From assembly GCA_963765605.1 (NCBI GenBank), contig CAVXXA010000006.1:27495-91494 (forward strand): a stretch of 64,000 nucleotides of DNA, written 5' to 3'. Of the stretch, positions 9,094-39,183 are shown piece after piece. The position numbers were made by a program, and so were the translations under genes. The DNA comes from Candidatus Bathyarchaeota archaeon (lineage in GTDB: Archaea; Thermoproteota; Bathyarchaeia; Bathyarchaeales; Bathycorpusculaceae). Numbering within the stretch: the first letter of the stretch is position 1; every line of letters starts with the position of its first letter. Under the pieces are notes generated by a model that saw only the letters and a program-made list of their open reading frames with translations, searched no databases and was not told the origin of the DNA.

Positions 9094-10211
9094 TTAGCAC
9101 AACGTCAATATGTTGTACAATTTGTCGCCAACAACGTCTGCTTTTCTTTTCTCGTATTCTTCGTACCCGTTCTTCTGCAGGTTCTGGTAGAGTTGAGTAT
9201 CATCATAGAGACGATTAATGTTTGAAACAAGATCATTCTCATTTTTTGCTACTACCGCATTTACGTTATCGATTACATAGTTGTCGTCATGTGTCATCAC
9301 AATCGGAGTTCTCATACTCCAACAATCACCAATGAAGCCCCATCCGCCAATTTTTACAGGTGAATAAGCGTAATAGCTACTTCGATATCAATCTAAGTGC
9401 CTCAGTTCTTGATAAATGGTTAACATAGCGAATTGCTTCACCATATCGCACTTTTAGTTTCTTTATTATTGGAGCATGTGGACCTGAACCTACTACAACA
9501 AATTGCTGAGTTTTTGTTTTTTCTAATATTAATGGTAAGGTTTTTTCAAATTCTTGTGTGTTCTTGAAGGGGTAGAGAGATCCAATGTATAAGCCCCTAC
9601 AATTTTCACGTGTGGACGCATACATTCAAAGTCGTCAGGTATGTAAGATGGCCAAGGGAGATAGAATACAGATCTATTGTTTTCTTGATAACAGTCCAAG
9701 ATTTTGCTGATCTCTTGGACTACACGTAATCAAAACGTTGGCTTTTTCGCATAACCAAGACCAGAACTTGGGACCATGAGACATTCCAAAGAAAGCCATA
9801 ATACTCTTCATTTTGCGACTGTTATAGACTTTCGCCTGAGAAAATTCTGCCTGCATCTTCTACCATTAATACTATAGGTTTTTTCAAATATTTTTGAATT
9901 AAAAGAGCGAGCCGCATATTTAGCTCTTGATCGCAAAATATCAAGTCAGGTTTTAGATCTTTAGCTATTTCCAAAATTCTGTTTAATTTTTTGGATGGAA
10001 AAAGGAACATATCTTTGGCATTTTCGTAAAGCCTGTATATTTGAATACCAGTCCATATTTTCATATGATGGAAAATTACCTTCTCCCTTTTGACCCATAG
10101 ACCTACAGGCAACAATTGCCAATTTACACCTTTGTCGTGAAGTCTAATGAGCATGTAAGCGTTATCGTTTACTTGCTTGCTCATTCCAGGGAATATGCAT
10201 AATATATTCAA
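9094..10211 (-). CDS. GT4-like glycosyltransferase, split into four ORF fragments
   Basis: Consecutive fragments: MNILCIFPG, KPDLIF, LYIGSLYPFKN, VVGSGP, TPIVMT..LQKNG. Confidence 0.65.
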
Positions 10212-19294: not shown

Positions 19295-20157
19295 TAATTT
19301 TTTGTCCAGAAAACTTGGGCCTCCTTACACAAATTTTGTTCTAACGGGAGTCGCGGACGCAGAATATCTTTGTTAAAAGCATCTGAATGCAAGCCGCGAC
19401 GATAAATCTCCACTCGCAACAACTCTTCAAGTCTAACGTTGCAAAGATGGACTTCTCTACCGAAGTGATCTAACAATGCGAATTGACTAGGTTTGTTAGG
19501 CGCCTCAAACGTAACGGTGCCATGGCCAAATGCGTCGGCGAACCGATCAGCAAATCCAACATTAAGATTGCCTTCGTCATCAAACAGTCCAACGCCCTTG
19601 GCGCTTTCTCGTGCCTCAACAACCAGTTGAACAGCTCCAGCATCCAGCCATCTTCTTCCTTGACTAATTAACTCTTCAACAATATCTTTAGTAAAAGCTC
19701 CAATGTGTTTTTTTCCAAGCTCAAACTGTACCTCTAGACCGCGAGAATTTGCAGTCTCCACAATCTTTCGCGCATCTAAATTTATGTCAGTGAACCCTTC
19801 CCCGCATTCTATCCGACTAAACCCAAAATCAGCTACTAGATCAAGATATTGATGCAGTTTACCCTGCACAAAAGCAACTTCAAATGGACCGCCGCCTGTG
19901 GTAGTGGATACTCGGTATTTCTTCGCAATCGCAATCTTTTGACGCGAAACATCCTCATTTGCAATCATCCAACATGCCATTGAAATTTTCAAAATTGAAA
20001 TAAGGTGATGACTTTGTTTAAGATGACTTGAGAATGTCGCAAGATCGTATCCTGGATCAAACGGGCTCGTCGCTGGACTGATTTCTGGAACACCGATTGA
20101 TCTGAGATATTCGTTGGTATGAAGTCGATTTTTCAAAGAGCCAGGAGGACTATTCAT
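19294..20157 (-). CDS. comA: Phosphosulfolactate synthase
   Basis: DPGY, TGGGPFE, IECGEGF, ELGKK, VVEARES, FEAP, LCNV, EIYRRGL; stop overlaps the comB start. Confidence 0.88.
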   Translation of the reverse strand: MNSPPGSLKNRLHTNEYLRSIGVPEISPATSPFDPGYDLATFSSHLKQSHHLISILKISMACWMIANEDVSRQKIAIAKKYRVSTTTGGGPFEVAFVQGKLHQYLDLVADFGFSRIECGEGFTDINLDARKIVETANSRGLEVQFELGKKHIGAFTKDIVEELISQGRRWLDAGAVQLVVEARESAKGVGLFDDEGNLNVGFADRFADAFGHGTVTFEAPNKPSQFALLDHFGREVHLCNVRLEELLRVEIYRRGLHSDAFNKDILRPRLPLEQNLCKEAQVFWTKN

Positions 20158-26128: not shown

Positions 26129-26550
26129 AGGCGTAGCTAATGAAATCCCTCCATAATAGAAGCGGATTAGAAAAAGCTTTTTTTTAACTTGATAAAACTA
26201 GCGTGAGGATTATTCCTCAATTAAGTATGGTTGAAGTCTCTTATTTAAATTGTAAGGATGAATTGTTCTATTTTTATCTAACATTAAATAGTTTTTTCTG
26301 TATTTTTATTGATTTTATGTTGGATTTTGTTATTGTTTGCTTTAGAACAATTCGTGTTTTGTGATGGAAGAATGTTATCAATGAGTCTGCTTCGGGAAGG
26401 TTAAGCTGGGTTGGGAAACGCGTGGTTCTTTTACTAAATTGTTTAAATTAATTTTGGCTTAGGTTAAGTTTTACCGTATGCTTCTTTGGCAGCCTGGCTG
26501 CTTTGCAACGTTTAAATTCTACTTTTGCAATTAATTGGGAAGGGATTGTT

Positions 26551-27732
26551 ATGGCAAGCTTAGTTTTTGCTAAAAATGTGTTCTTAAAGGGATTTAACTC
26601 TGTTCAGGAAAATGATACACTTTCCAGATGTTTAGAAGCCTTTGAAACAGGTATGCCTCCGGTTTTAGCCGTTTTAAATGATAAGGGCAAGTATGAAGGC
26701 ATCATTACTCGACGCTCGATTTTAAGGTCACGACTTGATTCTACCGCGACCAAAGTCAGAACGTTAATGAAGGTTGCGCCCCCTGTTACCTTGGATTTTT
26801 CCTTAAGTAAAATAGCTAAGTTGATGATTGAGAGTGAGATGCGGCAGCTTCCAGTTTTTGAGAAGAATAAGCTGTTGGGGTTTGTTACTGACGAGAACAT
26901 TATTCATGCGGCAGTTCTTGAGGAGTGGGGTAACACTGCAATAGAGAAAATCATGACGCGGGCACCTCACACTATTGAAGCAAATCGCTCTGTCGGAGCG
27001 GTTCTGAGTTTGATGCGGGAATATGGTATTTCACATATTCCAGTGATGGACAGCGGCAAAATTGTAGGCATGATTAGCATTCAAGATATTTTGGAGAATA
27101 TTTATTGGCCGCAGAAACGGCAGACAACTGGAGACATTGTTGGAGAGAAAATTGAAACCTTAAGTGTGCCAGCTAAGGGCATAATGGCCAGACCTGCAAT
27201 TACGGTTGAACCTCAAACGAGCCTGCGTGAAACAGAGAAATTAATGCATGATCGGGACATTTCCTGTCTAGCAGTTGTTTCAAACGAGCGTTTGGTTGGC
27301 ATAGTGACGAGGCGGGATTTTCTTGAGCCGATCTCGCAGCTGGAAACGGTTGAAAAGAAGTTGTCTGTTCAGTTCGGCGTTAAAGATGTAGATGTTACTC
27401 CTGATCAGCAGGGCTTCATGATGGAAGAATTCGATTCCTTCACACGCAAGTACCAGGACGCTTTCCAGCTGGGAACACTTTTTGTCTACATGAAGAGCCA
27501 CGGCAACACAAGCCTAAGGGGAACGCCGCTGATTCATTGTCGTCTGCAGTTCAGGACTGTGAGGGGAACGTTCTTTAGCGCCAGTGAAGGCTGGGGTGTT
27601 GAGCCGACTTTCAGAGTGGCATTAGACCGGCTTGAGAGGAGACTGCTGAGAAGCAAAGAACTGTTAGCTTACAACCCCAGATACGCCAAAGACTACCTGC
27701 GCAAGATCGGGTTACCCCAAGAAGAAACCTAA
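26551..27732 (+). CDS. Four-CBS-domain protein with C-terminal HPF/RaiA-like domain (putative ribosome hibernation factor)
   Basis: Four CBS repeats (GIITRRSI, GFVTDENI, GMISIQDI, GIVTRRDF). C-term CRLQFRTVRGTFFSASEGWG..FRVALDRLERRLLRSK resembles the HPF fold. Confidence 0.75.
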   Translation: MASLVFAKNVFLKGFNSVQENDTLSRCLEAFETGMPPVLAVLNDKGKYEGIITRRSILRSRLDSTATKVRTLMKVAPPVTLDFSLSKIAKLMIESEMRQLPVFEKNKLLGFVTDENIIHAAVLEEWGNTAIEKIMTRAPHTIEANRSVGAVLSLMREYGISHIPVMDSGKIVGMISIQDILENIYWPQKRQTTGDIVGEKIETLSVPAKGIMARPAITVEPQTSLRETEKLMHDRDISCLAVVSNERLVGIVTRRDFLEPISQLETVEKKLSVQFGVKDVDVTPDQQGFMMEEFDSFTRKYQDAFQLGTLFVYMKSHGNTSLRGTPLIHCRLQFRTVRGTFFSASEGWGVEPTFRVALDRLERRLLRSKELLAYNPRYAKDYLRKIGLPQEET

Positions 27733-27936
27733 GCCCTCTTTCCTCTTTTTGATTGTTTTGTTTTTTTGCGCGATAGTTTTAGTTTTCGTGTGTTTTTGTT
27801 GTAAATAGTAGGGTGGGGAGGTTTTTTGGTGTTTGTGTTTTGGGTTGCTTTTTTTCGTTGGGGTTTAAATCTTGGTTTTTTCATGGTGAATTTTGGTAAT
27901 TTATGGTAAAAAATGGTGAAAAAAGGTGTTTGAAAC

Positions 27937-28008
27937 ATGCCGTTAACTGAACTTATAAAATTACAAAGCTAAACTCCAGCGCAACAACGACTTACGGTTC
28001 CGACGCTT
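27937..28008 (+). pseudogene. 5' part of an interrupted AbrB/MazE-like small gene
   Basis: AGGTG RBS then ATG; with indel correction reads MPLTELI-YKAKLQRNN-LTVPTL. Confidence 0.55.
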
Positions 28009-28553
28009 CAAGGGTGACGCTGCAAAATGAGATCGGCGATGAAGTAGTTTTCAATTTAAAAAAGAAAAAAAGAGGGTCTCTGATCAGATATCTGCATCAA
28101 ATTTGTTTTGGACTATCGGATTCTATCGTTACAGCGGCTGCTTGGCGATAGTGGCGTGAGAGTTGTCCGCCTATGAGGATGAATTATACTGCTAATGCGA
28201 TTTGGGAAACGCGAATTTAACGTGTGAAAAGGTATCAAACATTTTTCCGAAATTATCAATCGACAGATAAGTTTTAAGTCAGACATTATATCTTCTGCGC
28301 GTCATTTAGCGGGAAGCGCTTGCTCCAATCTATTTCAGCGCGCATGCGTGTTCCAAAATTAGGTTTCAAATGGTAATAAGTCTCGCCTCGCATCCTTTTT
28401 TTGGATGCGAACACGAAGAGATTCGAGATCGTTGAGACACGCTAAAAAACGTTATCTTTTTAGGTCTCGATAATGAATCATATTTGTATAGGCGTCGACT
28501 TCTATATACGGTCATTAGCGAGTCCATGACTCTGGTCGACTGGGAGTGAGTAA

Positions 28554-28754
28554 ATGGCTAAGAAACCGAAAAAGAAGGAAGGCATCGACCAGGGTAAACT
28601 TCTTAAGAAAGCCCAGCGAACCCGTTCGAACCTTCAGCATGTGGCAACGGCGACCGACATTAACACTCTTTCATTTTTGATGTTCCAAGCGACAGCGTTT
28701 GGCGTCGAGCGAGTTCGCCCCGCAGATTCGTATAGCCTGAGGCGACCTTTGTGA
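28554..28754 (+). CDS. Small basic hypothetical ORF
   Basis: GGAGTGAG RBS, MAKKPKKKE; stop overlaps the next GTG (GTGA). Confidence 0.35.
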   Translation: MAKKPKKKEGIDQGKLLKKAQRTRSNLQHVATATDINTLSFLMFQATAFGVERVRPADSYSLRRPL

Positions 28755-31700
28755 ACGTCGTAGTTGCCGGTAGTCAAAACGACGCGAGTTTTGCTGTTGT
28801 GGATTTCACTAACCCCGCTACTCCCACGGTGGCTATTGTCGCCGCACCGTTCCAGGGGGGCTGCATGGTTGACTGTTCCGGGACGCTCGCGGCCGTGGGC
28901 AACTTCAATGGCGGTCAGGTCGCGATTTACGATATCTCAATCCCTTCAACCCCGGTTCTCAAAGGAAGCGTCAGCACGGTGCTTGGGGGCATCGGAGCCA
29001 TCTCGATTGACGGCAATCGCGTTCTGGTCGGGGAAGTGAACGGACTGCGCGTCATCTTGATCGATGTCTCTACGCCCTCGAACCCGACGATTCTGTCCAC
29101 TTTCAGTAGTGCCATCTCCAGCATCTCGTCCGCTGCGCTGAAAGGCACCAAGGCGATCATATCGGGCCCCAACGACCTCATCTTCGCCGTGCTGGACTAT
29201 ACCGTCCCTGCCACCCCCACCCAAGTCAAGTTCACCCCGGGAACCGGAGGCGTTTTCTTCGGAGGCGCGGTGGCTGGGGATCTTGACGGCACGAACGCCG
29301 CGCTTGCGGACATCGGCGACGGAAATGTTTACCTTTTCGATGTCGGCGGCGCCAGTCCAGTGTTGCTTGGCAAAATGCTCACGACACAAGCGGGCGTCTC
29401 GTCGTTATCAATCAGCGGAACCACTGTCGTCGCGGCCTCCTCCAACGACGCGACCCTGTCAGTGGTCAGCTTTCAAGCCCCGGCGACTCCGACGGAAAGC
29501 GACATCTCCAACGGCCTTAACGGCGGGGCCACCGTGAAGCTCGCTGGTGCCTTTCTTAGCCGCCGGCGATATCCTTGGGACTAAAGTCAATCTCTTCAAC
29601 GTGGTCGGCACCACGGCCACGCTCCTAGGCACAGCCGATACCACCCTTCCCTCCATCGCCACGGTCGGCTTCACCTCCTTCACCGTGGTATCCCCACAGT
29701 CGAAAATCAACGCGACGCCAGCCTAGTTTGGCGTTCGGGACTGTGCGCGTGAACACTGGAAAGACGATCTCGGTAACGCTGTCGAACACTGGCACTGCAA
29801 CCCTCAACGTGACGAACCTCAAGTCGTCTGCGGCGCAGTACGTGCCGTCGCCAACCGGATCGCTAAGCATCGGGGCTAGTGGTGGCACGCAAGCAGTACA
29901 GGTCAAGTTCACACCGACCGCTGCGCAATCTTTCCCGGCATCCCTCACCATGAACACGAACGACCCGGCGCATGCGAGCTTTACCATCCCACTAACTGGA
30001 AGCGGCGGCCTTCCGCACATAATAGTCCCTGGTCCAGTGGATTTTGGAAATGTGGCAGTCTGTCTCTCGCACACGGTGAACGCGACCATTGGCAACACGG
30101 GCACAGTAGACTTGCATCTCACGGCCATCGTCGTTTCGGGTACAGGGTTCAGCGAAAGCTCGGGTACGTCGCTGGTCGTGCCTGCTGGCGGTAACAGCAA
30201 TATTGTGGTCACTTTCAAGCCATCGGCCACAGGTGCCGCATCGGGAGTCTTGACCTTCCTCACTGATGACCCAAATACTCCAAACGCCTCGGTGAGCCTG
30301 ACTGGAAACGGCACGCCGGAGCCACCTCCTGCTATTCTTGTGACTCCCACCTCGATAGATTTCGGGGTCATACCATTACAATACTTTGCGGGCGTAGCGG
30401 TCACTGTTTCGAACAACGGCCCATGCGAGGATCTGGTCGCCACCCTGACCGTTACGGGAGCGGCGTTCTTGATCACCAGTGGCAATCCCACCACCTTACC
30501 GGTCAATAATCCACCGATCACCACCACAATCCCGGCAAGTACGTCGCAGTCCTTTACAGTGGTCTTCGCGCCCACGGCGCTCGGCGCCGCCGGCGGCACG
30601 TTGACGATCACAAGCAACGACCCTTCCAAGCCCTCCGTATCCGTGCCGCTGACTGGGACCGGCGTGGCCGTTTCGCCAGCGGCGATCGAGTTGATTCTAG
30701 ACCGTTCTGGCAGCATGGCCACACCTATCACCAACGGCACTCGGATGACCGCCTTGCAGAGCGCAGTGGCCGTGTTCGCCGATCTGGTCATACCGGACAC
30801 CGGTTTCTCCATGGGATCGGTGCAGTTCGACAGCCAGTTTGCGGTGCTGACGGTGCTCCAGAACTTCGACGCCGCCCAGCAGAGCGCTATCATTGTCGGT
30901 GCAAATTCGCTGGCACCTCGCTTCCTCACCTCCATCGGGGGCGGACTCGCACTCGGTCAGACGTCCCTGAACGCGTCGACACAGACTCGCAAGGTCGCCG
31001 TCGTTTTCACAGACGGGTATGAGAACACACCGCCGCTCGTCGCGTCGGTCGAACAAGGGATTCTCACCGCGGGCACCGAGGTATACGCGGTTGGGCTGGG
31101 AGATCCCGCGTATCTCTCAGTTGCGATCCTTTCCCAACTGGCGGCCAGTTCGAACGGCAAGTTCTTTCAAACCAGCGACCCGCTGGTGCTGCGCAAGCAG
31201 TTCGTCGAAATCCTTGCCGACGCCTTCCGCCAAAACATGGCTGCCGACCCAATCCTAACTTTGCAGCAAGGCATTCCCGTTACCGTCCCCGTGAGAATCA
31301 CAAACTGTGAGAGCCGGATAAGCTTCGTCCTGCTCTGGGAAGACCCCACAGCGCAGGTGCAGTTCTCGATCCAGGCCCCAGATGGCACGACCTTCGGAAG
31401 TCTCTCCGCCAATAACAACCGACTGGTGCGTTATATCGAGCGGCCAGGCTACCGCTTCTTCCAAATCGCGCTGCCCCCGGTCCGAATGCGACAATAGGGC
31501 CGAAGCAGCTGGGTCAATGGCTGATGCGGATTGATCCCGTGGCGATTGCCGGCGGGAGCACGCGGGCTTCGACCAGCGTGTTGGTAGAAGGCTCGCTGGA
31601 GATCACCGCGCGCATTACCGCGGGCAAAGTCACCGATCCGCTGACGGTGCGCGTGGCCCTGACCCAGAGCGGCCAGATTGTGAGGGGCGCGAACGTGCAA

Positions 31701-32012
31701 GTGCGCCTGACCGCGCCTGTCACTTCGCTGGCGCAGCTCTCGACCCCGCTGGTGCGCCACCGAGCGCTTGCGGCGGACACGCATCTGATTCCTCCGGGGC
31801 TGCAGCAACTGACGAAAACGCAAATGACCACCTACGAATTGAAATTTAACGAACGAGAATATGTCTTGCAACTGCCGCCACCCAAGGTCGATGGCGTTTA
31901 TCACGCCGAGGTCACCGCTAGCGGCCAGGCCTGCGGCGGAGTCTTCCAACGCTATTGGTCCGGGTCGGTCTACATCGGGCCAAGTGAGAAATACTATTCT
32001 CGGGAGCAATAA
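28751..32012 (+). CDS. ~1085 aa LVIVD-type beta-propeller + 3 Ig-like (choice-of-anchor D/ASH) + vWA domain protein, split by indels
   Basis: Repeats IYDISIPSTP and LIDVSTPSNP; 3x FG.V...SN.G...ND.....PLTG.G; MIDAS DRSGS..T..TDG. Bridging frames LAAGDILGTKV..NATPA/SLAFG and PGPNATIGPKQLGQWLMRID join the three ORFs. Confidence 0.8.
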
Positions 32013-32018
32013 CAGAGT

Positions 32019-35000
32019 ATGGCTTCTTCCAAATCCGGAAAGGTTCGCGTCCCTAAGGGCTATCAAGAACTCAAGGGCAGCGAGCGCCCTCGTTCTACAG
32101 CCGCAAAAATCGCTAGGTCCGCTGGACCCCAGGAACCTGTTTCCGTCACCCTCGTCCTGCGACACAAACCCGGCAGCCCCGATCTTCCCGATCACGAACA
32201 TTGGCGCAACACGCCCGTTGGCCAGCGCCGGTTCTTATCTCCCGAGGAGTACGCCAACTCCTACGGTGCCTCGCAAGCCGATCTCGACGCGGTAACCTCC
32301 TTCGTCGCCTCCCACGGCCTGACCGTGCTCAACGCCCACGCTGGTCGCCGCACTGTCAGCATTTCCGGCACTGCATCGCAGATGAACGAAGCCTTCGGCA
32401 TTCGACTCAACCGCTACGAATCTCCTCGCCCCAAACAGAAGCAACGGACCAAGGCGGCAGACGAATCGCTTTCCACACACATCCACCACGGCTACGACGG
32501 TCCCGTGCACATTCCCGCGGAACTCTCAGGTATCGTCACCGCCGTAATAGGTCTTGACAATCGTGCCCTCGGTGGTCCCGGCGGTAGCTCGGGCGATCCG
32601 ACAAATTCCAATTCACTCTCCGTTCCGAGAGTGGCCAACCTCTACAACTTCCCCAACCCCAGTGCTTCCGACCAAGTAATCGGCGTGATTGCTCCTTCTG
32701 ATCCCGTTGGCACCACCAATCAACGCCTATCCGGCTATCTCGCCAACGATATCAACAACAACTACTTCCCCAACCTCTCCGATTCGACCTATCGCACCAC
32801 GCCGGCCTCCCTTAACGACATCAACCTCACCGTCGGGACCAACACCTACACCAACAGCACCGCCACGGTTCAGGGAATCACGTCGGGAAGCCTCGGCTCC
32901 AATCCCACCCTTTTCGCGATGGAAGTCACTCAGGATATCTCCACCGCTGTTACGATCGCGCAGGGTGCCGCAGTCAACGTTTACTTTACGGAACTCACCG
33001 AGCAAGGTCTCCTTGTTTGTCTGAATCGAGTCCTCCTGCCCGAAGGTGAAAAGCAGCCCACCGTCGTCACTTGCAGCTTCAACTTTTTTGTCACCGACGA
33101 CTCGGGCTCGATTGGCGACGCAAGCAATACTGGTTCGGCTGCCTATCAAATGTCTTCTCTCTTCCAGGCACTCGCGCTCTTGGGTGTCGGTGTATTCATC
33201 ATTGCTCAAGATAATGGCAGCAACGATGGTGATAGCGACGGGAAGACTCACGTGAACTACCCCGGCAGCGATCCCTGGGTCACCTGCGTTGGCGGCACGG
33301 TCATCGGCAACATAAAAACCGGTCCGCCTGTCACTTTCGATGAATATGTCTGGAGCAATGTGGGTTCCGCGACTCAGGTCGGCGGTTTCGGAGGGGCCAG
33401 CGGCGGCGGTGCCAGCTCGAACTTCCCGATTCCTTCGTACCAAACCAGCGCCGGCATCACCAGCATTACCGACTCCAATGGGAACAAATCCACCAAGCGT
33501 TTCATCCCGGATGTCGCCGGCATGGTCTCCTACGGCGGTTCGGGCTCCCAGGACTGGTTCTGGATAAATGGGCTCAGCTACAACTTCACTGGCACGAGCT
33601 GCGCCTGCCCTCTCTACGCTGGGCTCTACGCTGCCTCCGCAGTGCCTTTGGCGTGCCTCTCGGTTTCTTTAATCCAACGATCTATCAGATCGGCAGCAGT
33701 GTCTGCAACGACATCACAAACGGCAACAACGATCCCAGCGATGGCTCGAAGGCTCCCTTCTACACCGCCGCTGCTGGCTGGGATCCGTGCACTGGCTGGG
33801 GCAGCATTGACGGCACCAAGCTTCTAAACGGTATCGCCGGCCTCATGTACAACCCAGACCTTCTATTTCCAAGTCGAAAAGAACACCTACGGCCTCGACG
33901 AAGTCTCCGTCAATTCCAGCTATTCCCCCGCGTTCTGGCTTGTCCTCGAAGGCTACACCTTCACGGCTGCCAAGAATATCAGCCCGCAGTCACCGGAGCA
34001 TTTTCCGCGCTTGCGGGCGTCACGATCACCGTCGGTCCCGCCACTCCAGAGATCAATTCCCTTCCAAACACGCCCCAGCGCGTCCTTTATCCCTGCAGCA
34101 TCAGTTTTGCCTCTTCCGCGATCAGGACCGTTGCCGATGGCGGTATATTTCCCGCCCCGGCGGTTCTGCCTTCTCACTACCCCTCACGGCTCTGATCACC
34201 ATCTCAGACCAAATTCTCGGCGCAGCCTCTGTGTTCGAACTCGTCCCCGGTGCTGATCCCGGCTTTGCAAATTTCAATTCGGCCGGTTCAAACGCATTCT
34301 ATCTCAGTGAAGATCTCCCGAGTCTTCACAATTACTCCCGGCATCAACAATACTCCTATCGCGGGCGTTCCCCTCCTGCCCGCGGACAATACCAAGTACG
34401 ATTCCGGCGCCGCTTACAACTACATCCAAACCCTTATAGCTCTTCTCAACGCCAACAACGGCGACGCTACCGGCGCCGACGTTTTCACTTCTTTCCCAGA
34501 CCAATCCAGCGCCCTCATCGGCGATTCCTCGGTCACCCCCAGCTCCGTGGACCCCGCTCATCCCACAGGTACTCGTTTCTCCAACTACAATTTCGCTGTC
34601 GCTCGTGTCCGTCTCAACGGCTCTCCCAACACCTCCTCCGTCAAGAACGTGCGCGTGTTCTTCCGCATGTTCGCCACGGAAACCGGCGACACCGACTACC
34701 TCACCGATTGGACCTATCCTTCGAACTTCTCGGGGGGGTTTCCCCGCTCACCGATTATCGGCACGGGGAATCCTCCCGTAACCATCCCATTCTTTGCCAC
34801 CGGTAACTACGAGGGGAACTCAGACCACCCCATCAACGTCGATTACTCTGCAAACAGCGTCAACAATCAGCCCATCCAGATCGGCGCCAGCGGCAAAGCT
34901 TGGGCCTACTACGGTTGCTACATCAACGTCTACCCCACAAATAACACAATCAACGGGCGGTCAATTCAATCCATGCTGCCAGGCACGCATCACTGTATCG

Positions 35001-36115
35001 TGGCACAAATCGCCTTTGACGATGCTCCCATCGTCAACTCCAATGGCACCACTGAAAATCCTGAAAACTCCGACAAGCTCGCCCAGCGCAACCTGGAAAT
35101 CACTTTTTCCGACAATCCCGGGCCTCCTTCCACGCATCGCATCCCGCAAACCTTCGACACGCGTCGTAGCGCAGCCCTGATCACGGGCGGTGGCGACCTG
35201 CTCGACTACCCCGATGAACTAATGATTGACTGGGGGAACACTCCCGTGGGCGCCTCCGCTCACATCTACTGGCCACAGGTTAACGCTTCCGAGGTTCTTT
35301 CCCTCGCAAAGAAGCTCTATTCTACTCACCAGCTCTCTGCGGCCCATTCCAACACCATCCACTGCAGAGTCCCGAACGGGTTCACCTATGTGCCCATCCC
35401 TCCAGGCGTTGGCGACAATTACGCTGGACTCTTCACCGTCGATCTTCCTCCCGGCGTTGTCGTCACAGGGCAGGTCTTCACCATCACCATCCGTCGCATC
35501 TCAACACGCCGCGCCGGCGTTATTTTTGATCGCCCCACGATTTCTGCCAGCCCTGCGGGCGCCGCGTCCGCGCCTCAGATCGAAGTGCTCTCGCCTGACG
35601 CGGCGGTCGTGGGCAAGAAGATGGTCAACTGGCGCTACGTAACCGGTAGTTTTGCCGTGCGTATTCCTGTCACTACCTCAAAAGTCATGCTTCCGTTCGA
35701 GGAAGACACCCTCGCCATCATGAAGTGGCGGCTCACCCAGATGCTTCCCACCAACCGCTGGTATCCCGTTCTCGTTCGCTACATCTCTTATCTCATCGGC
35801 CGCGTCGACGGACTCGGCGGCAACTCCACTTCCATCCTTCCCAACCCCTACGGCGTCCCTTCTTCGCAAGTCGCCTACGAGGACCGCTGGGGATTCACCG
35901 GCAAGGTCATCTGCATCCTTTATGATCGCTTCGGTGACTTCGAAGGTTTCACCATTCTTACCGAGGAAGGCCACGAGCAGTACTTCCACGCGCGGGAACG
36001 CCAAATCGAATTCCTTGTTCGCACCGCATGGATTGAACGCATGATGATCACCGTCTTCGTCCACCCCCACGCCCCGCATGAGCCCGTTTCCATTGGCATG
36101 CGTCGTGCACATTGA
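32019..36115 (+). CDS. ~1360 aa S53 (sedolisin/kumamolisin) peptidase with pro-domain and long unknown C-terminal region, split by indels
   Basis: Pro-kumamolisin domain (YGASQADLDAV..F...GL.V), catalytic MEVTQD, QDNG, YPGSDPWVTCVGGT, PDVAG, GTSCACP, Ca-site NDITNGNN/GWDPCTGWGS. Continues through ORFs 33653-34195 and 34250-36115. Confidence 0.85.
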
Positions 36116-36205
36116 CCTTGTTGGAACGCCAAAGCCACATAGAGCGTTGTGCAGCGTTGCGCAGGGTAATCCTGGGGAGGAGGATACTTTTTCTAGAAGG
36201 AACTT

Positions 36206-36420
36206 GAACTCTGGCGTTACAAAATCGAGGCAGGCGAACTCCTAAAAGTCACCCCCAAACCCCTCGAACCAGAAAGCTACCAAGAAGCGTTACTATCAAA
36301 AACAGCCACCGACGGACGCCTAACCATCCTCAAACTAACCATGAAACCCCCCCAGCAGAAAGAAAAAACTCACCGCAAGCATCTTCCAAGCCACCATCAG
36401 CCCCGCAGGCAACCCAAACG
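36206..36420 (+). pseudogene. 3' part of the interrupted AbrB/MazE-like gene
   Basis: Reads ELWRYKIEAGELLKVTPKPLEPESYQEALLSKTATDGRLTILKLT, then after a shift KLTASIFQATISPA; no start of its own. Confidence 0.55.
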
Positions 36421-36421
36421 A

Positions 36422-36603
36422 CGCCATGCCCCCAGCCGAGGCAAATCCCCCAGAAAGCACCGAAAAAGTTCCTCGGCAAAATCAAACGCATCTGAAAAAA
36501 CCTCAACAACAAAACCCCATAACAACATTACCCGTCCAAAAACCAAGTGACAAACAAAACAATTCTTCAAAAAGCTCAAGGTTAGGCTTAAAAAGCTTGG
36601 GAT
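36422..36603 (+). repeat. Diverged ~185-bp direct repeat, copy 1
   Basis: CGCC.TGCCC..CCGAGGCAAATCCC.CAGAAA.CACCGAAA...GCAAAATCAAA...ACCCCAT...TCAAAAAGC...TAAAAAGCT.GGAT shared with 37157-37343. Confidence 0.8.
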
Positions 36604-36648: not shown

Positions 36649-36879
36649 TTATACTGTGTCTAATATTTTAACGAATTCTTCTTTCGTTAATCCCGTATCT
36701 TTAATAATCTTGTTCAGCAGACCCGTGCCTAATTCTTCTCCTGCATGAACCGGCACAACAGTAAGCCTTCCATCCGCATGTTTCATAACGACGTGGCTGC
36801 CTCGCTTTCTCACAATCTTAAATCCCAATTTGGAAAGAGCTTTAATTATCTTTTTGGCTTTCTGTGGCTTCAAGCTCAT
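36649..36879 (-). CDS. hicA: HicA family toxin (mRNA interferase)
   Basis: LGFKIVRKRGSHVVMKH.DGR..VVPVH...LGTGLLNKI. Confidence 0.92.
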   Translation of the reverse strand: MSLKPQKAKKIIKALSKLGFKIVRKRGSHVVMKHADGRLTVVPVHAGEELGTGLLNKIIKDTGLTKEEFVKILDTV

Positions 36880-37091
36880 TCAGCTTGAACCTCTACGAAC
36901 TGAACTCCGACAAGCTCGGTGCGCCCATGCCCTTTCATCCCATCAGCTTCCAAATAAACTTCAATAGCCTCCTTGATCCTTTTCATTACTTCATCAAGAG
37001 TTTTAGCTTGGGTATGGCATCCAGGTAACTCTGAAACGGAAGCAACGTAGTAGCCGTCCTCATCTTTCTCAATCAATACTCCGAATTTCAT
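36876..37091 (-). CDS. hicB: HicB family antitoxin
   Basis: MKFGVLIEKDEDGYYVASVSELPGCHTQAKTLDEV..IKEAI; overlaps hicA (ATGA). Confidence 0.92.
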   Translation of the reverse strand: MKFGVLIEKDEDGYYVASVSELPGCHTQAKTLDEVMKRIKEAIEVYLEADGMKGHGRTELVGVQFVEVQAE

Positions 37092-37156
37092 CTTAACCAC
37101 CAGAAAGTACTGTGAATAGGAAACAATTACTAAAGCCTTCTTCCTAACTTCAGCGG

Positions 37157-37343
37157 CGCCGTGCCCTACCCGAGGCAAATCCCACAGAAAACACCGAAAC
37201 AAAATTACTCAGCAAAATCAAAGACACCCGAAAAAACAGCTAACAACACAACCCCATCAACCCAAACAGCTCTAGACAACACCACCTAGAAAAAACTCAA
37301 ACAACTCATCAAAAAGCCTAGGGGCCGCCTAAAAAGCTGGGAT
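37157..37343 (+). repeat. Diverged ~185-bp direct repeat, copy 2
   Basis: Aligns by eye along its length with 36422-36603. Confidence 0.8.
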
Positions 37344-37468
37344 TGGGCTTTTGAGTTGAGGTGCGATTCCCTTCCTCGTCTAGGGTTTAAGGAAGTGGTT
37401 TGCATGCTAATTACCTTGGATCCTCCAGTGGGCAATCTTACTTATAAAAAGAGCCTCAGAAACAGCAA

Positions 37469-37625: not shown

Positions 37626-38320
37626 TTACGGAAGCATTTTTTCCCTTCTAATTAGCCTACTTGACAAAATCAACAACACAATTGACAGGCCACCTGCAAT
37701 CACAGCAATAGACAAGTCAACTAGGAAGGCGATAGAAAATGGTAAGAACGAAATATAAAACGTTGGAATGATAACCACGGCGCCAATGGACAATGCAAGA
37801 GGACTATTGGCGCCCACTCTCTGTTTTTGTAATGAACTGAAAGCCATCATAGCAACTGTAGCTAAAGAAACGGCAGAGAAACCAAGCACGGCGGTAAGAG
37901 CTAACAGCGCTAGAGCTAAAAGTGTTGTCCCTGCAATAACGCTTGAGACGACATCGGCGGCGAATTCTGCAATGAAAAGAGTTAGTGCAAGGAAAAGCGC
38001 GGTTTTTAAGTAGCGTTTAAAGATGTCGCTTTGACTCCAGCCGAGTGAAAGTAGATACTCCAAAACGCCGTTGTTTTTGTCATAGACGTAAAGCATAATA
38101 ACAGAGGTAGTGAACATAAGAATTGCTAAAGCCATAAACGGAACGGCAATAAGGAAAAGTGCTTCAGGCGCACCTTTAGCAAGAAAGGTAATGGCGTCTG
38201 CTATGAAGATTCCAAAGGAAGCAAAGAAAATCCCCATTCCAGAATATATTTTGCTCAAACTGAGGCTTCGTTTAGCGAAAATCAATGTGTTATTTGGCAA
38301 CTTGCTGTGGCTCCTTTTGT
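37626..38320 (-). CDS. ABC-2 type transporter permease
   Basis: About 6 TM helices, YDKNNGVLEYLLSLG; start approximate. Confidence 0.75.
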
Positions 38321-39183
38321 GCTTTTTCCAGTTTTCCGTTGGGTGACTCAAAAAGCTCTTGCAGGGGATTATCAAGCTGCCGCATTTCGGTGACCAGAAC
38401 ACCGCTTTCAACCAATTTCTTCAAAGCAAGCCCTGCTTCTTCAGGGCTAGACGTATTCAAAACAAAGTAATCGCCCTCACGTTGGGCATCTATGATTTTA
38501 GATATGTCCTTTGAGGCTTTGATGCCTACTCGGTACTGTTTGGGTTTAATGTTTGAGATCTTATCAAACAATGTTACAGAACCATTCTTGATCAAAATCA
38601 GGTAAGTTCCAATGTCAGTTGCTTCATAGAGGTTATGGGAAGAGTACAGAATCATCTTGTCCTTACTTAATTTTAAAATGATGTCTCGAATTTCCTTTGA
38701 AATTGACGGGTCTAAATTGGCAGTAGGCTCATCTAACAGGTACAAATCGCTTTCGTGAAGAAACACCTTTGCAATAGCGGCTCTCTTTTTTTGTCCCTGT
38801 GAAAGATCCGAGAACCTTTTGTTTTTCAGTTGGCCGAGGTCCAGCAGGTCAATCACTTCGTCGGGATTTCCTCCTTCTATATCAGAGTAAAACTTGAGTG
38901 CGTTATACACAGTCATCTCTTCGGGCATTGCGTTGTACTGCGAGAGATAGCTCATTCTTGTTCTTGCTTAACCTGACGTGGTTGTGTTTTCGTCATCGAG
39001 AAGTATCTTCCCGCTGTATGGCTCTAGTATGCCAGCGATTGTTCTAAACAGAGTTGTCTTGCCCGCACCGTTTGGCCCTAAAACAACATATATTGACGGT
39101 TCTTGCAGTTTAAAGCTAATATTATGCAAGACGATTTGCCCATTGTACCCCGAAGATACATTATTCAATTCCAAAGCATGCAC
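38290..39183 (-). CDS. ABC transporter ATP-binding protein (split at ~38960)
   Basis: Walker A GPNGAGKTT, signature LSQGQ, LLDEPT, SSH. Confidence 0.9.

What the first reader, a model, noticed from the sequence alone, without database searches (positions are those of the whole stretch)
27937..36420. 8.2-kb recombinase-free GC-rich insertion precisely splits an AbrB-like gene
Seen: the left flank reads MPLTELI-YKAKLQRNN-LTVPTL (ending CTT 28006-08) and the right flank reads (CTT 36203-05) ELWRYKIEAGELLKVT...TDGRLTILKLT. Joining at the shared CTT gives one continuous small protein, and TTCAAG/CTTGAA form a 6-bp inverted pair across the junctions. The interval has a sharply different composition and no integrase or transposase. 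Knowledge (from recall): the joined sequence resembles tandem AbrB/MazE-like proteins (MPLT...RVQVP..RW.FK...DGRI.IPKL) that are multicopy in Bathyarchaeia. Inference: foreign cargo is captured into members of this dispersed gene family by a trans-acting recombinase or microhomology repair, making the family a landing pad for accessory DNA.
Basis: partly seen in the sequence, partly recalled or inferred. Interest (0 to 1): 0.8.

Follow-up and report, generated by a model that had tools for sequence, protein, structure and literature searches.

The report
Bacterial gene pair in archaeal cassette
Two whole bacterial-type genes (a large surface-type protein and a predicted acid protease) sit inside an already broken copy of a small archaeal DNA-binding gene, likely a recent gene transfer patched in by the host's own DNA repair rather than a precise cut by a dedicated enzyme, though an assembly error is not excluded.

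Summary
The GC-rich block is real in the assembly (57% vs 42% GC), has no recombinase, and lies between the 5' and 3' parts of a PHS018/MraZ-like tandem-AbrB gene. That gene is intact in 6 of 8 orthologous sites seen in the genus. The split is not precise. The left part runs to 28039, not 28008, so 26-35 bp of the gene lie on both sides, in diverged form. About 350 bp of host-type debris follows, so foreign DNA starts near 28390. The TTCAAG/CTTGAA pair is chance-level. The cargo is two whole genes, found in the same order on an acidobacterial-type contig, and shows no drift toward host composition. Partial copies in relatives break at scattered positions, and none of 64 other cassette loci had a comparable GC-rich block. 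Best reading: a recent bacterial islet likely inserted by host repair into a decayed, recombination-prone cassette that had already gained a HicAB pair. An assembly chimera remains about 25% likely: the cargo is frameshift-rich, nothing bridges the foreign junctions, and the same assembly has a second bacterial block at a contig end.

The parts
26503..27732 (+). Host CBS-domain gene; left anchor of the orthologous locus
   Evidence: 84-87% DNA identity to four relatives
27795..27936 (+). Cassette leader: conserved T/G-rich core plus a row of 10-bp-phased boxes (27879-27936). The boxes are those of the genome's other copy (C6:11.7k), not of the CBS-linked orthologues
   Evidence: array 95% to the paralogue, 62-71% to CBS-linked orthologues
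27937..28039 (+). 5' third (nt 1-104) of a PHS018/MraZ-like tandem-AbrB gene, frameshifted, with an in-frame stop; a mosaic of paralogue-type and CBS-type segments
   Evidence: a 151-base contig of run X1 matches 27937-28087 with 1 mismatch and no gap
28025..28061 (+). 38-column look-alike (33 identical) of the host's own ribosomal protein S24e coding sequence (C7:297370-297405), overlapping the end of the gene part
   Evidence: 0 of 100 dinucleotide shuffles as good; among 120 genus genomes the closest other match to a 22-mer is G000's own gene
28040..28390 (.). Host-type spacer, 40% GC, ending in two dispersed repeats of the host genus (28265-28335 and 28337-28383)
   Evidence: (matches in 21 of 119 other genus genomes)
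28391..28750 (.). Foreign-type leader of the cargo; the true left boundary of foreign DNA is inferred to lie near 28390
   Evidence: TCG/CGA count above all 2373 GC-matched host windows; no host match beyond chance
28751..32012 (+). Cargo gene 1: LVIVD / choice-of-anchor D (Ig-like) / VWA protein of about 1090 aa, with 3 frameshifts (near 29555, 29725, 31481)
32019..36115 (+). Cargo gene 2: pro-kumamolisin-domain (S53-like) protein of about 1365 aa, with 5-7 frameshifts and no in-frame stop in the aligned frames
   Evidence: (90% identical to intact P0243)
36116..36211 (.). Unassigned 96-bp trailer. 36183-36207 weakly resembles 28392-28417 (47 of 1000 shuffles as good)
36212..36603 (+). 3' part (from nt 79) and tail of the tandem-AbrB gene, with frameshifts
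36649..37088 (-). HicA-HicB toxin-antitoxin pair, absent from this site in G004 and G079
37154..37378 (+). Second copy of the cassette's 3' tail. 37154-37343 duplicates 36419-36603 at about 73% identity and brackets HicAB
37626..39183 (-). Host ABC transporter genes; right anchor, syntenic in G004 and G079

Best explanation
A two-gene block of bacterial type sits inside a broken copy of a multicopy archaeal regulator cassette, and was likely inserted recently by the host's own recombination or break repair rather than by a site-specific enzyme. Shown: the cassette (core, phased boxes, tandem-AbrB gene) is a mosaic of the genome's two copies. It is broken with a diverged 26-35 bp overlap, carries 350 bp of host debris, and has separately gained HicAB between duplicated tails. 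The cargo is two whole genes with donor-like codon composition. Inferred: gene conversion and unequal recombination between cassette copies broke the gene first, making a neutral, recombination-prone spot. Foreign DNA was then joined into that dead spacer, near 28390 and 36180-36211, by microhomology-level or homology-assisted illegitimate recombination, perhaps only in part of the population. Whether the host expresses the cargo is untested.
For: Host DNA resumes in the right gene, order and strand on both sides, matching intact alleles at 6 of 8 CBS loci seen; a single chimeric join would not do that. Both cargo ends fall outside the two genes, a roughly 3% chance for random cuts, and the same pair occurs in the same order on contig L142. 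Run X1 holds 99-100% identical pieces of the left flank, the broken gene with its frameshifts, the debris and the cargo. Another genus member, G123, carries an older homologue of cargo gene 1 (46-52% identity, about 52% GC) near toxin-antitoxin-type genes. Order of events: the overlap copies differ at 11 of 35 positions, while cargo fourfold-site GC is 0.716, like its homologues (0.715-0.734 for five of six genes, 0.836 for one) and unlike host genes (0.35-0.54). Partial copies in relatives begin or end at nt 84, 99, 105, 114, 135, 136, 160 and 367.
Against: No listed X1 piece bridges 28390-28750 or 36116-36212 (8 of 14 pieces were shown), and X1 may be the source sample. The cargo has 8-10 frameshifts in 7.3 kb against 2-10 in 25.5 kb of host genes (p 0.03 to 0.0002) and no nonsense codon, which suggests few supporting reads. 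No close homologue of either cargo gene was found in 119 other genus genomes. The assembly has a second bacterial block at the start of contig C4 that cuts a gene. The repair mechanism itself is inferred from the absence of other signatures; the only end repeat is borderline.
Confidence: 0.52

Rival explanations
1. Assembly artefact: a piece of a co-occurring bacterium was spliced into an error-prone long-read contig at a repetitive, decayed cassette. The broken gene and the debris are real, but the cargo is not part of this chromosome.
For: Excess frameshifts without stops in the cargo; no amelioration; second foreign block at C4:1-6900 with a cut gene; no bridging piece at the foreign junctions, and 7 of 8 listed X1 pieces fall in 27937-35520 (p 0.006 per piece, 0.03 if mates are merged). 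Multi-domain chimeras are documented for long-read assemblers (10.1101/2025.04.22.649783, passages).
Against: It needs two joins that return to the same host gene in order, and ends that spare both genes (about 3%). The C4 block has the one-join, cut-gene form expected of an artefact, and this block does not.
Confidence: 0.25
2. Cassette-to-cassette transfer: the cargo was first captured in another copy of the cassette (another locus or strain) and then moved here by double crossover using cassette homology, so the family works as a recombinase-free landing pad.
For: Segments near both junctions are paralogue-type: box array 95%, first codons 90%, 36212-36245 94% to the C6:11.7k copy. The overlap copies are too different for a recent duplication. 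Partial copies bracket accessory genes in G003, G019, G088 and G117, and HicAB here. Toxin-antitoxin-type genes lie within 1.5 kb of 5 of 29 copies against 6 of 300 random G000 windows, but the queries partly came from those loci.
Against: No second cassette with this cargo or any GC-rich block among 64 loci. The segment 27966-28008 is CBS-type, so the mosaic is finer than one double crossover.
Confidence: 0.16
3. Site-specific insertion by a tyrosine recombinase acting in trans on a site inside the gene.
For: G000 has 6 PF00589 matches at 5 loci elsewhere. An imperfect direct repeat flanks the interval, and several breakpoints of partial copies fall between nt 79 and 136.
Against: The repeat copies match at only 24 of 35 positions and breakpoints are not shared. 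The 6-bp inverted pair is chance-level. No integrase-like hit within about 6 kb of 20 other cassette loci (four query integrases). No tRNA in the window, no attC or IntI.
Confidence: 0.07

Closest known systems
PHS018 of Pyrococcus horikoshii (PDB 2GLW) and MraZ (PDB 1N0E, 9QLG, 9R4J)
   Same: Two AbrB-type repeats in one chain; profile E 3e-5, Foldseek E 1e-5 with TM 0.72 on the target, MraZ next. PMC4333400 (passages) describes PhS018 as an archaeal AbrB-related barrel predicted to bind DNA.
   Different: Multicopy and dispersed with its own box array; some copies have a 35-aa tail; no Pfam family hit; the copy here is broken.
Recombinase-free genomic islets gained by illegitimate or homology-facilitated recombination (recalled, no call)
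   Same: Few foreign genes, donor-like composition, no mobility gene, placed in a neutral variable spot.
   Different: Cross-domain, and the spot is a decayed regulator cassette with a patchwork of host snippets at the left end.
Archaeal integrative elements that split a gene at an att site (SSV1 and pNOB8 types; recalled, no call)
   Same: Cargo lies between two partial copies of one gene.
   Different: No integrase, no tRNA target, no identical att core, no shared breakpoint.
Archaeal integrons and CALINs (PMC9668308; abstract and passages)
   Same: Cross-domain gene capture without an adjacent recombinase; toxin-antitoxin genes nearby.
   Different: No attC-like site at the ends and no IntI over cut-off in G000.
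Multi-domain chimeric contigs of long-read metagenome assemblies (10.1101/2025.04.22.649783; passages)
   Same: Abrupt GC and taxonomy shift inside a contig; indel-rich sequence.
   Different: Host sequence resumes in the same gene and both cargo genes are whole.

Membership tests
PHS018/MraZ-like tandem AbrB (swapped-hairpin-type) proteins | Two AbrB-type beta-alpha-beta repeats in one chain forming one barrel | tested here: met
   Intact orthologue: (pLDDT about 90 over residues 1-90)
Curated AbrB/MazE or MraZ sequence families | Pfam or NCBIfam hit over cut-off | tested here: not met
   0 Pfam families for three copies; TIGR01439 E 0.07, 12.8 bits against cut-off 28.3
PHS018/MraZ-like tandem AbrB (swapped-hairpin-type) proteins | Binds DNA boxes in its own promoter | not testable with these tools
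   Phased boxes seen upstream; binding not tested
Site-specific integrative element | Integrase in or beside the element | tested here: not met
   tyrosine recombinases only elsewhere in G000
Site-specific integrative element | Identical att core at both ends and a fixed crossover point | tested here: not met
   24 of 35 identity between copies; scattered breakpoints
Integron cassette / CALIN | attC site at the cassette end; IntI in the genome | tested here: not met
   no strict attC pattern, no Rfam match, TIGR02249 best 44 bits against 265; IntegronFinder's own model was not available
IS, MITE or composite transposon | Terminal inverted repeats, transposase, exact target duplication | tested here: not met
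   inverted match of the ends reached by 603 of 1000 shuffles
Peptidase S53 (sedolisin/kumamolisin) | Pro-kumamolisin activation domain | tested here: met
   PF09286 E 8e-18
Peptidase S53 (sedolisin/kumamolisin) | Glu-Asp-Ser catalytic residues and oxyanion Asp | tested here: inconclusive
   Candidate motifs at residues 302, 397 and 525, read against a recalled pattern; no Pfam catalytic-domain hit
Genuine chromosomal insertion (versus chimera) | Independent reads spanning both host-foreign junctions | tested here: inconclusive
   X1 spans 28008 and 28039 but not 28390-28750 or the right junction; source reads not available

The most novel reading that the evidence does not exclude
The dispersed box-array/MraZ-like cassettes of this archaeal genus act as recombinase-free landing pads. 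Breaks in them are repaired by template-switching that stitches in short host snippets (such as the S24e piece) and captures whole foreign operons, even bacterial ones, and gene conversion between copies then moves the cargo around the chromosome and the population.
Probability: 0.14. Interest if true: 0.78.

Novelty: new member of a known kind. Interest (0 to 1): 0.38.

Why it matters
If real, this is a bacterium-to-archaeon transfer caught before any compositional drift, with empty alleles in sister species. It offers a direct view of how these peat archaea gain large extracellular-type proteins without mobile elements, and it marks a multicopy regulator cassette as a site where accessory DNA piles up. 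If it is an artefact, it is a clear example of a cross-domain chimera that passes marker-gene checks (2.7% contamination) and looks like a precise insertion. Either way, the striking claim of a precise split by an unknown recombinase does not hold.

Tried and rejected
Precise CTT join and 6-bp inverted pair: rejected. Shared breakpoint in paralogues: not found. Integron, IS, tRNA-targeted or viral carrier: no support (both viral-contig scans found no relative). A close donor: best DNA matches were 73-78%; 2 of 401 genomes in the order of the nearest Acidoferrales genome have the S53 gene and none matched gene 1 or the leader at E 1e-20. Host methylation signature in frameshift contexts: too few events to read. 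An 85%-threshold contig with two indels at 32105 and 32130 offsets a frameshift pair, but it dropped out at 96%, so it may come from a relative; not used as proof. A depth-2 contig joint skipping 27988-36257 has only 24 bases on its short side; not used. Lack of X1 cover on the right flank is not evidence of absence. One search used a wrong Rfam accession and tested nothing. Literature searches for this cassette or this kind of islet in Bathyarchaeia gave nothing specific in the listings; subscription papers are not covered, and no supplements were read.
Full report
Observation. The start codon is at 27937 and CTT triplets are at 28006-08 and 36203-05. The interval 28009-36205 is 57.2% GC against 41.6% elsewhere in the window. 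In a genome-wide Markov scan it is one of the two lowest-scoring blocks. Removing it at the CTT gives DNA colinear with the only other copy of the gene in this genome, C6:11381-11823. The host is archaeal (ribosomal protein S24e; archaeal-type PyrD below cut-off).

The split gene. An intact orthologue matches 67 of 120 genus genomes. It has no Pfam family, but a 12-sequence profile hits PHS018 (2GLW, E 3e-5), and the predicted fold matches PHS018 and then MraZ. Copies carry a conserved T/G-rich core and 10-bp-phased boxes upstream, as earlier scan notes describe. Of 8 relatives' CBS loci seen, 6 have the intact gene directly behind the CBS gene (G004, G019, G020, G071, G079, G123), G016 has only its 5' third, and G003 has none. 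G004 and G079 also share the ABC genes on the right, so the empty allele is established.

Against the G004 allele the left part continues to 28039 (nt 104) and the right part resumes at 36212 (nt 79). Over nt 70-104 the left matches 26 of 35, the right 27 of 35, and they match each other 24 of 35; 0 of 8019 insert positions reach the left score. TTCAAG lies within this homologous stretch, and such a pair occurs in 21% of random zone pairs. Both parts are frameshifted. Both are mosaics: the box array and first codons are 95% and 90% like the C6:11.7k paralogue, the next 43 bp are 86% like CBS-linked orthologues, 36212-36245 is 94% like the paralogue, and the next 100 bp are 87% like G004. I infer gene conversion between copies.

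After 28039 come about 350 bp of host-type DNA at 40% GC. It begins with a 33-of-38 match to the host's own S24e coding sequence (0 of 100 shuffles as good; a 22-mer's closest other match in 120 genomes is G000's own gene). It ends in two dispersed repeats found in 21 of 119 other genus genomes. Foreign-type composition starts near 28390. On the right, a HicA-HicB pair sits between two copies of the cassette tail, 36419-36603 and 37154-37343, a second accretion event.

The cargo. Gene 1 (28751-32012) encodes an LVIVD / choice-of-anchor D / VWA protein of about 1090 aa; gene 2 (32019-36115) a pro-kumamolisin-domain protein of about 1365 aa. Best homologues are 86% (gene 1, central part) and 90% (P0243, whole gene 2) identical and unnamed. 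The nearest named genomes for gene 2 are Ca. Acidoferrales at 80% and Actinomycetota at 77%, and the family is scattered over many soil phyla. The pair occurs in the same order on metagenome contig L142, whose neighbours look acidobacterial by my recall; none of the 80 genome loci of gene 2 had gene 1 within 10 kb. In 119 other genus genomes gene 2 gave one 69-residue match and gene 1 one distant homologue, in G123. Fourfold-site GC is 0.716, as in its homologues, against 0.35-0.54 in five host genes.

Is it in the chromosome? One public run, X1 (peat, contigs only, 7% of sampled words), was found. At 96% likeness 12 records were laid and 8 of 14 pieces were shown: one in the left flank (196 of 196), three over 27937-28390, and four in the cargo. 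The piece at 27937-28087 confirms the frameshifts and the gene-to-debris join. Nothing shown crosses the host-to-foreign boundaries, and X1 may be the source sample. The cargo has 8-10 frameshifts in 7.3 kb and no nonsense codon, against 2-10 in 25.5 kb of host genes (p 0.03 to 0.0002), which suggests a thinner consensus. The assembly also begins contig C4 with 6.9 kb of fragmented bacterial-type genes ending in a cut PCC-domain gene. Long-read assemblers are reported to make multi-domain chimeras and to report regions backed by one read (10.1101/2025.04.22.649783, passages). Against an artefact: host DNA resumes in the same gene and order, both genes are whole (about 3% by chance), and G123 shows that this family can reside in the genus. 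I put a real insertion, perhaps in a minority of cells, at about 75%.

Mechanism. A site-specific enzyme predicts a shared breakpoint and matching ends. Partial copies in relatives begin or end at nt 84, 99, 105, 114, 135, 136, 160 and 367. No integrase-like gene lay near 20 other cassette loci, although G000 has tyrosine recombinases elsewhere. There is no tRNA, attC, IntI or terminal repeat. The overlap and debris are 13-31% diverged from their sources while the cargo is unameliorated, so the gene likely broke before the cargo came. The most likely route is host repair or illegitimate recombination into a dead, recombination-prone cassette. A weak 26-bp direct resemblance between 28392-28417 and 36183-36207 (47 of 1000 shuffles) may mark the ends. 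Transfer of a pre-formed island between cassette copies is the main biological rival. Toxin-antitoxin-type genes were near 5 of 29 copies against 6 of 300 random windows, with partly circular queries, but 0 of 64 other loci (some overlapping) held a 1-kb window above 55% GC.

Novelty and verdict. A recombinase-free islet from bacteria in an archaeon is a known kind of thing. The cassette family is not described in the listings but is already noted within this scan. What remains unusual is the patchwork left end and the nested accretion. Papers: 10.1101/2025.04.22.649783, PMC4333400 and PMC9668308 were seen as listing, start of abstract and passages; all others as search listings only. Interest 0.38; new member of a known kind.

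Noticed in passing
L002:1-6920 (G000:C4 start): 6.9 kb of 58% GC bacterial-type genes (siroheme decarboxylase pair, GH26, histidine kinase pieces, TPR/zinc-ribbon protein), heavily fragmented, joined to host DNA through a cut PCC-domain gene at a contig end; likely a chimera.
   Followed up: partly
window 28025-28061: 33-of-38 copy of the host's own S24e coding sequence at the break of the regulator gene; unexplained, possibly a templated repair snippet.
   Followed up: partly
window 28047-28079 and L020 near 9900-9955: G016's copy breaks at nt 99 and is followed by an A/T-rich stretch resembling the one after the break here (0 of 1000 simple shuffles, a weak control for such sequence).
   Followed up: partly
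window 28265-28335 and 28337-28383: Two dispersed intergenic repeats of the genus (for example G000:C5:81205-81272), one with a small hairpin; no Rfam match.
   Followed up: partly
L198, L199, L200, L201: Arrays of three cassette copies (some partial) alternating with toxin-antitoxin-type and accessory genes, with no integrase-like hit in the fetched stretch.
   Followed up: partly
L209:8193-11577 (G123:C1): Older, about 52% GC homologue of cargo gene 1 in another genus member, near toxin-antitoxin-type genes and not in a cassette gene.
   Followed up: partly
G000:C4:242000-246000: Cluster that looks like head and portal-type proviral genes at 50-58% GC (by eye).
   Followed up: no
L001:5204-5292 and L165:11428-11511: ARAGORN calls a tRNA-SeC beside a SepSecS-like gene in G000 and G071 (gene label recalled), hinting at selenocysteine use.
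   Followed up: no
L018:15766-15840 and 19365-19439: Two tRNA-Cys copies 3.6 kb apart in G004, a few kb from the orthologous CBS locus; possibly an integrated element.
   Followed up: no
window 38290-39183: The ABC ATPase gene appears split at the same place in G004 and G079, so the split is probably real rather than a sequencing error.
   Followed up: partly
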